From: Octopus vulgaris
Lineage: Eukaryota
Direction of reading: 5' to 3'
Length of the DNA: 64,000 nucleotides
Assembly (NCBI GenBank): GCA_951406725.2
Contig: OX597834.1
Coordinates: 27,280,001 to 27,344,000 of the forward strand
Part shown: positions 1,261 through 61,140 of the stretch, in pieces
Layout: each line of letters begins with the position of its first letter
How positions within the stretch are numbered: the stretch's first letter is position 1
Made by a program: the position numbers and the translations under genes
The notes under the pieces: model-generated
Seen by the model: the letters and a program-made list of their open reading frames with translations, nothing else
Databases searched by the model: none
Told to the model about the DNA's origin: nothing

Positions 1261-1511
1261 CGTTTGTCATGTTTGCAGTATAAGTGAGTTCGCATTACAC
1301 CAGCAGCCTTCCACTTTTTTTTTTCGTCCAAGGGATTTTTAAGCCAAATATTGTACACATATCTTTTACTCGTTTCAGTGTTTCAGTGTTTATACCTCGT
1401 TCAGAGATTTATTATTGTTTGCATACAATTTTTCGAGATCAGTGACGAAAAGTTACTGGAAAAACGATATAAGTATTTGCATTGGGACCCCTTTCATCGA
1501 AAACCGGTGAT

Positions 1512-2027
1512 AAGATGATACCGCCAACTGGACTCTCGAAGGAAAGTGAGGCATGTTTTCACTGCACGGTTGCAGTCATAAAAGAATGCATGTGGCGTAC
1601 AAGAATGGAAGGAGTCGCAATAGGATCCTTTGTCTCAGGCCCTGGCTTGCTCACTTACTTCAGATATCATCTGAAGAGCAAAATGGGGCTGGAAAAGAAG
1701 ACCTTACTACGAGGTGTGTATGAAAAAAGATGGAAGGAAGTGGCAAAAAAGGTGGGTGTCAGAAACCCAGTTTAACTAAGGATGGAGAAGAGGAAAGGAA
1801 AGCTGCGGGGCCTTATAGGTTGCCGGGGTTTAAAATATATCGGTAAGATTTCAATCTAATGTAATGTTATATTAGTCAATGCAAAGGACAATTTAAATAC
1901 AGTTTTTTTGTATAATGAATAATCCATATATTTTGGAAATTTTTAAACGAACCACTTAACTGTTTTTTGTGTGTATGTCCTGTATTGTTCTTCTATGTAC
2001 TGATTTTATAATCGTAATAAAGAATTA
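1512..2027 (+). mobile_element. 5'-truncated L1/Tx1-type LINE (ORF2 C-terminus + 3' UTR)
   Basis: Perfect 16-bp TSD ATCGAAAACCGGTGAT at 1496-1511 and 2028-2043. ORF ending at 1775 reads ...VAVIKECMWRTR...YEKRW, like the K-x-x-W-x-x-R...W tail of L1/Tx1 ORF2. AATAAA at 2016-2021. Confidence 0.72.
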
Positions 2028-2046
2028 ATCGAAAACCGGTGATTGT

Positions 2047-2091
2047 CGTACGCTGATGACAGGTCGAAACCTAGAAACTGCAGTCCGTGCG
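2047..2091 (+). ncRNA. Minimal type I hammerhead ribozyme motif
   Basis: Stem I CGTACG/CGTGCG; core CTGATGA (2053-2059); stem II AGGT-CGAA-ACCT closed by a non-canonical C.A; GAAAC-TGCA-GTC with palindromic loop. Predicted cleavage after C2085. Confidence 0.72.
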
Positions 2092-2296
2092 TATTACTTA
2101 GGTTGACGAGGGAAGGATGACCTCCCTTTGCAAATACCATAAGAGCACAGATAGTGTGCCTAAAGCCAGCTGGAGACGATGTTCTCCTGGGGTTACAAGC
2201 CACAGTAACACCCACCCTTAGTGGTTAGCCATATTGAGATGGCTAGTATACCTCACATTGGCGTGCAGTTACTGTTTATACCTCGTTCAGAGATTT

Positions 2297-2672
2297 AATG
2301 GCCCAGTGGTTAGGGCAGCGGACTCGCGGTCATAGGATCGTGGTTTCGATTTCCAAACCGGGCGTTGTGAGTGTTTATTGAGCGAAAACACCGAAAAGCT
2401 CCACGAGGCTCCGGCAGGGGATGGTGGTGATCCCTGCTGTACTCTTTCATCACAACTTTCTCTCACTCTTACTTCCTGTTTCTGTTGTACCTGTATTTCA
2501 AAGGGCCGGCCTTGTCACTCTCTGTGTGACGCTGAATATCCCCGAGAACTACGTTAAGGGTACACGTGTCTGTGGAGTGCTCAGCCACTTACACGTTAAT
2601 TTCACGAGCAGGCTGTTCCGTTGATTCGGATCAACCGGAACCCTCGTCGTCGTAACCGACGGAGTGCTTCCA
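2297..2672 (+). mobile_element. tRNA-derived SINE family A (OR-like), missing first ~10 nt
   Basis: A-box TGGCCCAGTGG, B-box GTTTCGATTTC; near-identical to copies at 24974, 27976, 37540, 57750. Confidence 0.92.
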
Positions 2673-3220
2673 TACCTCCATAGTGTTTCAGTCATTGGCT
2701 CATGCTGGGGCACCGGCTTGAAGGGTTCAGTCTAATTAATCGGCAATGTAACTCATACCCATAAATCACACTCGAAACAAAAACAAAGCAAAACAGACCT
2801 CTTCGGGCATCAATTGTTGCGTTGTCTGTATTTATGTCGAAAGATGAACTAGTTTCATTCAAAGACAGAGCTTTGTATGATACTTACATACTCTTTTCCA
2901 TCTCTCTCTCTCTCTTCCCCTCTCTCATTGCCTCTCTCTCTTTCTTTCTTTATCTCTCTCTGTCTCGCTCTATCTCTTTCTTTCAGTTATAAACAAGGGA
3001 CTCCTTATGACTGTTACCTCTTTTATCTCCCCTTCTGTCTGTCTCTCTTTCCCTCTCTGTTTCTGCCCTCTCTCTTTCCTTCATAGCTTCTATCTCTTCA
3101 CTCACTCTCGCTCTTTTCTGTCATGTTTTCATGATTCTTTCTTTCTTTCTTTCTTTCTTTCTTTTTTATTTGCTAGTGCTTTCTTACAGTTTTTTTTCCT
3201 CAGCTCAACACAACGACCTT

Positions 3221-5253: not shown

Positions 5254-5630
5254 TATATCTCTAGTCTTATTCTTGGCTTCAATTGTTGGATTGCAGATCG
5301 TTAAAAATGCGAAAGAACGAGAGTTACAATAAAGTGAAAATATATAGGATGGACCAAATAGACTAGACGCAAAAGTTGCGATTCAACGTCCCATAAATAG
5401 TGGAAAAAACAAAAAAAGAAAATAAAAAAAGCATGAAAGTTTCATTTACAACACAAAAACGTAAACGATAAAGCTTTATTCATTCTTGCTCGCACAGATC
5501 AGCATGGTGGCCTTGTGGTTAAACCTGTAGGGCGCACAAACATAATAGCGTGGTTTCGATTCAAAGTCCGCACATCATTTCACCCTTTTATGCAAACTGT
5601 AAAATTTTGCCCGAACACCCTATATATATA

Positions 5631-8731: not shown

Positions 8732-9150
8732 TATTTCTTTACTACCCACAAGGGGCTAAACACAGAGGGGACAAACAAGGACAGACAAACGGATTAAGTC
8801 GATTATATCGATTCCATTGCGTAACTGGTACTTACTTTATCGACTCCGAAAGGATGAAAGGCAAAGTCGACGTCGGCGGAATTTGAACTCAGAACGTAGC
8901 GGCAGACGAAATACCTTTTTTTTTTCTTTTTACTACCCACAAGGGGCTAAACACAGGGGACAAACAAGGACAGACAAACGGATTAAGTGGATTATATCGA
9001 TTCCAGTGCGTAACTGGTACTTAATTTATCGACCTCGAAAGGATGAAAGGCAAAGTCGACCTCGGCGGAATTTGAACTCACAACGTAACGGCAGACGAAA
9101 TACGGCTACACATTTCGCCCGGCGTGCTAACGTTTCTGCCAGCTCGCCAC
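8732..9150 (-). mobile_element. SINE family B head-to-tail dimer
   Basis: Full unit plus a second unit starting at internal GGTATTTCG. Central GGTCGACTTTGCCTTTCATCCTTTCG...GTCGATAAA...AGTACCAG resembles, from memory, the Nin/Deu-type SINE domain. Confidence 0.9.
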
Positions 9151-12605: not shown

Positions 12606-13445
12606 TACACACACACACTGTGTGAGAACAACAGCTTTACATAGGAAGCCTGTCTAGATATGGCCCTCACGCTGTGCCATTCTACTTACAGCTGTGCCTC
12701 AACATGTTTCACATCTTTGCTCCGTTTATCGTGGGACTGTCTGTGGAATTGGTATTCTTATAATTCTAGCAGGCATAAACACGTTAGAGAGTGCTACACG
12801 CATTCTCGCCCCACCACACACATATATTCACATAAGTATGCACACACATACATTTGCATACATTCACATACATTCACTTACAATCACATACACATACACA
12901 GGCATTCTCGCAGACAAGCAAATACGCAGCCTCACACAAACATACACACATTGACAAACACCCATACATATAATAAATGCACAAACATGCACAGCCACCT
13001 ATATTTATACATAGCCATATGCATAAAAATATGGCGTACATTCAACGCATACACACACATAAACACACACAAACATATAGCTATAAGATTTCACGATCCA
13101 AATCTCTCTCCATGTTGCAAGTATAAGCACATCTACACACTTTTACACACATGTATGCATATATCTACGCATGTACATACATATACTTGCATATACGCAT
13201 AATCGTCATTGAGTATATCATTTGCGCACATGCATACCACACACGTATTGAGACACATATACATATACGTATACACGGATGAGAAGAGAATTGAACACAC
13301 ATACATCCATTTACGCAAATATATATACACATACGCATACACAAACAAAAACATTTACTAATGCACAAAAACCAGAAACACACGCATTCATGCATTATCC
13401 CACAAGTACTCATATCATGAAAGTACATATCTTGAAGATAATACG

Positions 13446-14043
13446 TATTTCTTTATTACCCACAAGGGGCTAAACATAGAGGGGACAAACAAGAACAGAT
13501 ATAGGTATTAAGTCGATTACATCGACCCCAGTGCGTAACTGGTACTTAATTTATCGAACCCGAAAGGATGAAAGGCAAAGTCGACCTCGGCGGAATTTGA
13601 ACTCACAACGTTACGCAGACGAAATACCTATTTCTTTATTACCCACAAGGGGCTAAACATAGAGGGGACAAACAAGAACAGACATAGGTATTAAGTCGAT
13701 TACATCGACCCCAGTGCGTAACTGGTACTTAATTTATCGACCCCGAAAGGATGAAAGGCAAAGTCGACCTCGGCGGAATTTGAACTCACAACGTAACGCA
13801 GACGAAATACCTATTTCTTTATTACCCACAAGGGGCTAAACATAGAGGGGACAAACAAGAACAGACATAGGTATTAAGTCGATTACATCGACCCCAGTGC
13901 GTAACTGGTACTTAATTTATCGACTCCGAAAGGATGAAAGGTAAAGTCGACCTCGGCGGAATTTGAACTCACAACGTAACGGCAGACGAAATACCGCTAA
14001 GCATTTCGCCCGGCGTGCTAACGCTTCTGCCAGCTCGCCGCCT
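13446..14043 (-). mobile_element. SINE family B trimer with a single 18-bp TSD
   Basis: One full unit plus two ~182-bp units. TSD TATCTTGAAGATAATACG at 13428-13445 and 14044-14061. Confidence 0.93.
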
Positions 14044-60838: not shown

Positions 60839-61140
60839 CCCCGTGAACGACTAGGCTATCAGATGTTGCTACACATCGCTGGTCACAATGCGTTTTTCAT
60901 TGTTTTAGCCTTCAAATGACGCCACCCCACTGGCTAAGCGAGCAGGCCAACAGAAGAAAGAGTGAGGGAAAATTGTGGCGAAAGAGTACAGCAGGGATCA
61001 CCACCATCCCCTGCCGGAGCCTCGTGGAGCTTTAGATGTTTTCGCTCAATAAACACTCACAACGCCCGGTCTGGGAATCGAAACCGCAATACTACAACCG
61101 CGAGTCCGCTGTCCTAACCACTGGCCCATTGCGCCTCCAC
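60839..61140 (-). mobile_element. SINE family A' (family A head and core, different 3' tail)
   Basis: Matches family A for ~180 nt to ...CTCACTCTT, then an unrelated tail ...GGCCTGCTCGCTTAGCCAG...TGTGACCAGCGATGTGTAGCAACATCTGATAGCC. Confidence 0.88.

What the first reader, a model, noticed from the sequence alone, without database searches (positions are those of the whole stretch)
1377..2692. Ribozyme unit and a tRNA-SINE apparently integrated as one chimera inside a single TSD
Seen: AGTGTTTCAGT occurs at 1377-1387 and 2682-2692, enclosing both the HHR unit and a family A SINE that lacks its first ~10 nt and is fused directly at 2297. The target looks like the tail of an old family C SINE (CTTTTACTCGTTTCAGT...CATT...CATGCTGGGGCACC) split by the insertion. 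Inference: reverse transcription began on the SINE RNA and switched template to the HHR RNA. This would mean the LINE machinery that mobilises family A can also copy the ribozyme RNA.
Basis: partly seen in the sequence, partly recalled or inferred. Interest (0 to 1): 0.72.

Follow-up and report, generated by a model that had tools for sequence, protein, structure and literature searches.

The report
Retrozyme–SINE chimera hosting targeted LINE
A small self-cutting-RNA repeat and a tRNA-type jumping element sit fused inside one target duplication, likely because one copying enzyme jumped from one RNA to the other once; a third jumping gene that lands at one fixed spot in such repeats likely inserted into it afterwards.

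Summary
An exact 11-bp repeat (1377-1387/2682-2692) encloses a hammerhead (HHR) element fused to SINE A lacking 10 nt. The 'HHR unit' is actually a 354-bp repeat (1.07 units) split by a 516-bp LINE 3' end with its own 16-bp duplication. The repeat family inserts with a Penelope-type footprint (fixed 3' end, inverted arms, own TSDs). This copy stops short of that end, has no TSD of its own, and its junction is unique in the assembly. Best reading: one SINE-primed insertion with a template switch (0.55), a known kind of chimera with a new partner pair. The SINE's LINE is not the repeat's regular mover. Two separate insertions (0.2) and read-through from a lost source locus (0.15) remain open. 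Contigs in 2 of 4 runs lack the SINE and keep the 11-mer, but their upstream letters were not seen. The nested L1/Tx1-type LINE is site-specific: 27 of 30 copies run into the HHR unit at one site. The scan found this targeting before on other DNA of this genome.

The parts
1357..1387 (-). 3' tail of an old SINE C copy, the target, left part (includes the left TSD)
   Evidence: Left and right flanks align without a gap at the break to SINE C copies at 5620 and 18140
1377..1387 (+). Left copy of the 11-bp TSD; its last base is also unit position 1
   Evidence: chance about 0.1%
1387..1511 (+). HHR repeat (retrozyme-like, 354-bp unit), positions 1-125
   Evidence: Matches family loci, up to 97.6% among the loci held; 3531 first-look candidates in the genome
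1496..1511 (+). Left copy of the nested LINE's TSD (14 bp in full-length copies, plus 2 nt here)
1512..2027 (+). 5'-truncated L1/Tx1-type LINE: ORF2 C-terminal codons (frame ends at 1775) and 3' UTR
   Evidence: 95-98% identical to the 3' ends of about 5.3-kb elements with CCHC ORF1 and APE-RT-zf-RVT ORF2
2028..2043 (+). Right copy of the LINE TSD
2044..2297 (+). HHR repeat positions 126-354, then 1-25 (25-bp terminal redundancy at 2273-2297); stops 3-9 nt before the family's usual 3' end
2047..2091 (+). Type I hammerhead motif: stem I 2047-2052/2086-2091, CTGATGA 2053-2059, GAAA 2074-2077, palindromic short stem III, predicted cut after 2085 (unit position 167)
   Evidence: MFE fold alone not significant, z -1.0; cleavage not tested
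2297..2681 (+). SINE A lacking its first 10 nt; A-box-like 2299-2309, B-box-like 2343-2354 (box consensus recalled); core ends 2671, stutter tail 2672-2681; 1-nt (A) overlap with the HHR part
   Evidence: 98.4% to nearest copies held; ARAGORN and Rfam do not call the head
2682..2692 (+). Right copy of the 11-bp TSD
   Evidence: SINE-free contigs in runs X4 and X5 match from exactly 2682
2693..2760 (-). Remainder of the old SINE C target; the flank to 2890 has no close second copy

Best explanation
An HHR repeat segment and a 5'-clipped SINE A lie fused inside one 11-bp duplication, likely from a single target-primed insertion in which the SINE's partner reverse transcriptase switched onto the ribozyme-repeat RNA; a site-specific LINE likely inserted into the repeat afterwards. 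Steps: (1) inferred: the SINE's LINE enzyme nicked the old SINE C tail and primed on SINE A's 3' end; (2) inferred: 10 nt short of the SINE 5' end it moved, across a 1-nt overlap, to an HHR-repeat RNA at unit position 25, near the end where Penelope-type priming normally starts; (3) shown: the copy spans 379 nt of repeat, across the predicted cleavage site, so the template (inferred) was uncleaved, multimeric or re-ligated circular RNA; (4) shown: one 11-bp TSD closes the whole; (5) shown: a LINE 3' end sits at the family's fixed target with its own TSD; inferred: it came last. The product is a one-off dead retrocopy, not a composite family.
For: One exact TSD of the size SINE A makes. SINE A is 3'-most with a normal tail. 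The HHR part ends at position 25, against 28 or later in 29 of 29 best copies. It has no duplication of its own (longest match 5 nt), whereas 15 of 21 non-microsatellite HHR insertions have 7-14 nt; 2 of the 3 other copies ending at 25 show their own 7-11-nt repeat. The downstream side is a G+C-rich SINE head, unlike the A+T-rich flanks of ordinary copies. The junction is unique: 1 exact-pattern match and no second junction-spanning hit among 40 scored of 4193 candidates. In 2 of 4 runs laid, a 282-nt contig matches 2682-2890 from the first TSD base and does not continue into the SINE, so a SINE-free allele with the whole 11-mer exists. The LINE's truncation point is not shared by 29 other copies. 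Same-sense 5' partner plus 5'-truncated 3' element inside one TSD is the published signature of template switch or ligation (10.1101/2025.02.02.635956; PMC2104539).
Against: Single case. The junction lies within 3-9 nt of the repeat's normal priming end, which is what a separate Penelope-type insertion would also give. Such insertions can end at 25 (3 of 29 other non-canonical ends), and 4 of 21 have no duplication. The left junction shares TGT with a SINE-only allele, a plausible 3-nt microhomology for a second insertion. Rough estimate (my assumptions: 3531 HHR loci x 14,493 heads x 10 nt, same strand, 2.8 Gb): about 0.09 chance co-locations per genome before the extra conditions. The letters upstream in the SINE-free contigs were not shown, and an HHR-only allele ending in A would also match from 2682. 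No other chimera was found among 29 plus 30 SINE copies. The SINE's partner LINE was not identified.
Confidence: 0.55

Rival explanations
1. Two insertions: SINE A came first with the 11-bp TSD; a Penelope-type enzyme later put the HHR repeat at its 5' boundary, deleting 8-10 nt and making no TSD.
For: The 3' junction is close to the normal HHR end. Ends at position 25 occur. 3-nt TGT overlap at the left junction. SINE heads are abundant: 14,493 exact matches, sister families included. An older HHR-to-SINE A junction without an enclosing TSD exists at L254, so such adjacencies also arise without a clear single event.
Against: Needs four things together: exact boundary, rare end, no TSD, and a deletion. 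No SINE-only allele was listed, though the tables were cut.
Confidence: 0.2
2. 5' transduction: at a source locus a 5'-clipped SINE A had inserted at position 25 of an HHR array; a read-through RNA was then copied as one template by the SINE's LINE.
For: Explains the single TSD with no enzyme jump. The A+T-rich repeat end is a plausible SINE target. 5'-clipped heads exist (4 of 30, all sister families).
Against: No source or sibling junction in this assembly (exact pattern, only 40 candidates scored).
Confidence: 0.15
3. RNA ligation (RtcB-type, as for U6/L1) joined an HHR-repeat fragment to a clipped SINE RNA before reverse transcription.
For: Gives the same DNA structure (10.1101/2025.02.02.635956, discussion). 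RtcB circularises retrozyme RNA in vitro (PMC7229834, passages).
Against: The ribozyme's cyclic-phosphate end is predicted at unit position 167, not at the junction (25), so the obvious ligation substrate does not fit.
Confidence: 0.1

Closest known systems
Chimeric retrocopies by template switch or ligation: U6/L1, Alu/L1 (10.1101/2025.02.02.635956: abstract, introduction, discussion part 1 of 2 read); WEIRD/Mg-SINE/MGL in Magnaporthe (PMC2104539: abstract and outline)
   Same: Same-sense 5' RNA copy fused to a 5'-truncated 3' retroelement inside one TSD.
   Different: The 5' partner is a ribozyme repeat that normally shows a Penelope-type footprint; it is longer than one unit and spans the predicted cut site. 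Single case, not recurrent.
Animal non-LTR retrozymes (PMC7229834, passages; 10.64898/2026.07.22.740005, parts 1-2 of 5 and passages)
   Same: Non-coding unit of 170-400 nt (here 354), one type I HHR per unit, partial tandems, larger TSDs, proposed PLE dependence.
   Different: Expression, cleavage and circles not tested here; this copy entered through a SINE-primed event; stem II has a C-A first pair in 39 of 46 copies.
Penelope-like elements (10.1101/2021.04.23.441226, passages)
   Same: 5' truncation, partial tandems, adjacent inverted copy, extension on one end only (inverted arms mostly end at 337-342, direct arms at 28-34, about 44 nt apart).
   Different: No ORF; the RT+GIY-YIG elements found carry another HHR and no similarity to this unit (30 loci).
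Target-specific Tx1-clade LINEs: Tx1 in Tx1D, Tx1-Mar in Mariner-N4, Keno in U2 (PMC4494074, passages)
   Same: APE-type LINE with a CCHC ORF1 that inserts at one site of another repeated element, with a fixed TSD.
   Different: The target is a ribozyme-bearing retroelement, about 25 nt upstream of the HHR core; no such target turned up in the listings of paper searches.

Membership tests
Chimeric retrocopy (single TPRT event) | One TSD around both parts | tested here: met
Chimeric retrocopy (single TPRT event) | Direct same-sense fusion, 3' partner 5'-truncated, 5' partner without its own TSD | tested here: met
Chimeric retrocopy (single TPRT event) | Both parts absent together in the pre-insertion allele, no intermediate allele | tested here: inconclusive
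   SINE-free contigs in 2 of 4 runs, upstream letters not shown
Composite HHR-SINE family | Same junction at several loci | tested here: not met
   1 match; none besides this locus among 40 scored
Non-LTR retrozyme | Type I HHR core with covarying stems | tested here: met
   copies were picked by a motif pattern, which fixes some core letters; no Rfam hit
Non-LTR retrozyme | Non-coding 170-400-nt unit in dispersed partial tandems | tested here: met
   354 nt
Non-LTR retrozyme | Self-cleavage and linear/circular RNA in vivo | not testable with these tools
PLE-dependent element | Fixed 3' end, inverted 5' arm, one-sided tail, variable TSD | tested here: met
   inverted arm in 17 of 29 and 18 of 40
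PLE-dependent element | Autonomous PLE sharing the pLTR | tested here: inconclusive
   no convincing match in 30 GIY-YIG loci fetched of 150 scored, 6136 candidates
tRNA-derived SINE | tRNA-related head | tested here: inconclusive
   A/B-box-like motifs by eye (consensus recalled); ARAGORN 0 of 3, Rfam none
tRNA-derived SINE | 3' tail shared with a partner LINE | tested here: inconclusive
   no LINE with this tail among the loci held
Tx1-clade target-specific LINE | ORF1 with CCHC knuckle; ORF2 APE + RT + zf-RVT, L1-like | tested here: met
   best PDB match human L1 ORF2p, E 9e-53
Tx1-clade target-specific LINE | One target in more than 20% of flanks (criterion of PMC4494074) | tested here: met
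   27 of 30 run into the HHR unit; the other 3 show the 14-bp target followed by another LINE start
Tx1-clade target-specific LINE | RT phylogeny inside the Tx1 clade | not tested
   no named Tx1 reference among homologues; the label Tx1 rests on architecture and recall

The most novel reading that the evidence does not exclude
A LINE-type reverse transcriptase captured the RNA of a Penelope-dependent ribozyme element by jumping onto its free 3' end. Because a foreign enzyme landed within a few bases of the Penelope priming point, the locus is a fossil showing that retrozymes retrotranspose from a linear, longer-than-unit, uncleaved RNA ending near position 25-34, not from a circle. A LINE specialised on ribozyme repeats then found the copy, so three retro-machineries meet on one non-coding RNA.
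Probability: 0.3. Interest if true: 0.62.

Novelty: new variant of a known kind. Interest (0 to 1): 0.45.

Why it matters
Chimeric retrocopies are known, so one more is a modest result. This one crosses machineries (a Penelope-type client RNA inside a SINE-primed insertion) and constrains the template: uncut, longer than one unit, entered near the normal priming end. That bears on the open question of whether retrozymes move through circles or linear multimers. The nested LINE is the stronger result: a young family that inserts at one base of a ribozyme-bearing retroelement, a target class that did not appear in the papers searched, with a simple endonuclease test available.

Tried and rejected
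Composite HHR-SINE family: rejected, junction unique. LINE+HHR as one co-mobile unit: rejected. In 19 loci the LINE 3' ends are 97.5% alike while the HHR flanks are 81-82% alike; up- and downstream flanks correlate (rho 0.68) but LINE 3' end and flank do not (-0.08), and the TSD variant matches on both sides in most loci (pairs not independent; 1 of 20 loci dropped for lacking the upstream unit). TSD length as proof of the enzyme: rejected. Ligation at the ribozyme cut: does not fit position 25. More chimeras: none among 29 SINE copies or 30 with an altered head; the 20-bp repeat at L271 comes from a local tandem duplication (part of that script's print-out was mis-oriented, the self-alignment is what I use). 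An adjacency screen of 253 loci (190 with the unit, many of them repeat fetches of the same places) gave only this locus and L226/L254. Autonomous PLE partner and SINE partner LINE not found. Paralogous empty site: none. Rfam, ARAGORN and MFE fold uninformative. Pfam on the truncated ORF: none. Sequencing contigs were swamped by repeats; runs X1 and X2 gave no listed piece at the right junction, which shows nothing. The letters of the SINE-free allele remain unseen.

Full report
Setting. The window lies in a 2.8-Gb assembly (G000:C21). A cephalopod is inferred from a 48% protein match named Argonauta hians and from the scan's earlier notes; I did not test this further.

Observation. The 11-mer AGTGTTTCAGT occurs at 1377-1387 and 2682-2692 and nowhere else on the + strand of the window. 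In 207 of 200,000 random position pairs drawn from the window an 11-mer is shared in the same geometry. The flanks join colinearly to the tail of an old SINE C. SINE A begins at 2297/2298 without its first 10 nt. Two more exact repeats matter: 25 bp at 1387-1411/2273-2297 and 16 bp at 1496-1511/2028-2043. The second encloses 516 bp that match the 3' end of a LINE. Removing it leaves a 354-bp unit, present here as 1.07 copies.

The HHR repeat. The unit has 3531 first-look candidates in the genome. In 46 motif-selected copies the type I hammerhead stems covary (7 of 15 pairs, 34 cells; shuffled mean 8.3; slid controls at most 7). Related copies inflate such counts, and Rfam and MFE folding give no support. 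In the 29 best other copies the direct arm ends at unit position 28 or later (27 of them at 28-34), and 17 have an inverted arm, mostly ending at 337-342; 18 of 40 loci fetched from the first of 473 exact-end matches are also inverted. 15 of 21 non-microsatellite loci carry a 7-14-nt repeat of their own, microhomology included. This is the Penelope footprint described in 10.1101/2021.04.23.441226 (passages) and fits the view of retrozymes as PLE clients (PMC7229834, passages; 10.64898/2026.07.22.740005, parts 1-2 of 5 and passages). The autonomous partner was not found: 30 GIY-YIG loci show no convincing match to the unit, and those with a hammerhead-like motif carry a different one.

The SINE. 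14,493 exact head matches exist, sister families included. Of 29 near copies, all have the full head and most have an adjacent TSD, mostly 11-12 bp. ARAGORN and Rfam do not call the head. The partner LINE was not found among the loci held.

One event or two. For one event: the single TSD; the SINE at the 3' end with its normal tail; an HHR part that stops at position 25 and has no duplication of its own (longest match 5 nt); a 1-nt overlap at the fusion. Ends at 25 are rare: of 37 non-canonical matches 30 were inspected, 4 stop at 25 (this one and three others), and two of those three show their own repeat. The junction is unique, so this is no composite family. In runs X4 and X5 (two studies, two species labels) a 282-nt contig matches 2682-2890 with 4 and 3 other letters and 2 gaps, starting at the first TSD base, and its remaining 33-40 letters on that side do not follow the SINE. 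The flank has no close second copy in the assembly, so these are SINE-free alleles of this site that keep the whole 11-mer. Their upstream letters were not shown, and runs X1 and X2 listed nothing there, so an HHR-only allele is not excluded and a SINE-only allele was not properly looked for. Against one event: the junction is near the repeat's own priming end, the left junction shares 3 nt with a SINE-only allele, TSD size fits both enzymes, and a rough count gives about 0.09 chance co-locations per genome before the extra conditions (my assumptions). No further chimera was seen in 59 SINE copies. One older HHR-to-SINE A junction (L254) has no enclosing TSD that I could see. I put template switch at 0.55, two insertions at 0.2, read-through from a lost source at 0.15, RNA ligation at 0.1. 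The ribozyme's predicted cut is at position 167, so ligation at that end does not explain the junction, and the template must have spanned the site uncut or re-ligated.

The nested LINE. Full copies are about 5.3 kb with a CCHC ORF1 and an APE-RT-zf-RVT ORF2, closest to human L1 ORF2p among solved structures. Of 30 copies fetched from 38 matches to a LINE-only pattern, 27 run into the HHR unit at the same site (one of them lacks the LINE's last bases); the other 3 show the 14-bp target followed by the start of the same or a sister LINE (two of the 30 share one locus). In 19 of 20 long loci the unit also lies upstream, the 14-bp TSD mostly carries the local variant on both sides, and the flanks (81-82% alike) are far more diverse than the LINE 3' ends (97.5%). 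These are independent, site-specific insertions. This copy's truncation point is not shared by 29 others, so it most likely arrived after the chimera. Tx1-clade elements targeting DNA transposons, LTR elements and U2 genes are known (PMC4494074, passages); clade membership was not tested by phylogeny. The scan noted this targeting and the Penelope footprint before on other pieces of this genome; its promoter reading was not tested here. A look-up by sequence returned nothing.

Novelty. Same-sense fusions inside one TSD are known (10.1101/2025.02.02.635956; PMC2104539, abstract; module exchange in mollusc SINEs, PMC4758252, passages). Six paper searches (listings only unless cited above) showed no retrozyme-SINE chimera and no LINE aimed at a hammerhead repeat; the library lacks most subscription papers and Repbase reports.

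Verdict. Real, one-off, mechanistically ordinary chimera with a new partner pair, holding a more interesting site-specific LINE. New variant of a known kind; interest 0.45.

Noticed in passing
L254:759-1600 (G000:C1:66.605 Mb): Older locus: inverted plus direct HHR arms fused at unit position 54 to SINE A positions about 45-315, then to a third repeat; no enclosing TSD seen.
   Followed up: partly
L024:2055-2374; L188, L199, L207: A 74%-identical sister LINE lies just upstream of the same unit site in L024; in three loci LINEs are stacked at the target, behind their own or a sister family's copy.
   Followed up: partly
window 2298-2490 versus 60949-61130; L045, L137, L042: SINE A is modular: its first 180-198 nt are shared with sister families that have other tails, and positions 187-368 also occur behind a different upstream sequence.
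   Followed up: no
L148, L153 and other GIY-YIG loci: A young PLE family with 781-aa open frames (RT and GIY-YIG found in L148); several of the GIY-YIG loci carry a different hammerhead-like motif downstream of the frame.
   Followed up: partly
window 8738-9103 and 13440-13995: 189-bp and 183-bp tandem units (1.9 and 3.0 copies) of another repeat family.
   Followed up: no
L008, L014, L016, L019, L020, L024, L027, L029: Direct arms of 8 of 29 HHR copies begin at unit positions 106-111, at the LINE's insertion site; only 2 of 40 in the less biased sample.
   Followed up: partly
window 1372-1387: The target holds an 8-bp tandem doublet (GTTTCAGT twice) in place of the second 8-bp tail unit of SINE C; one search suggests it predates the insertion.
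   Followed up: partly
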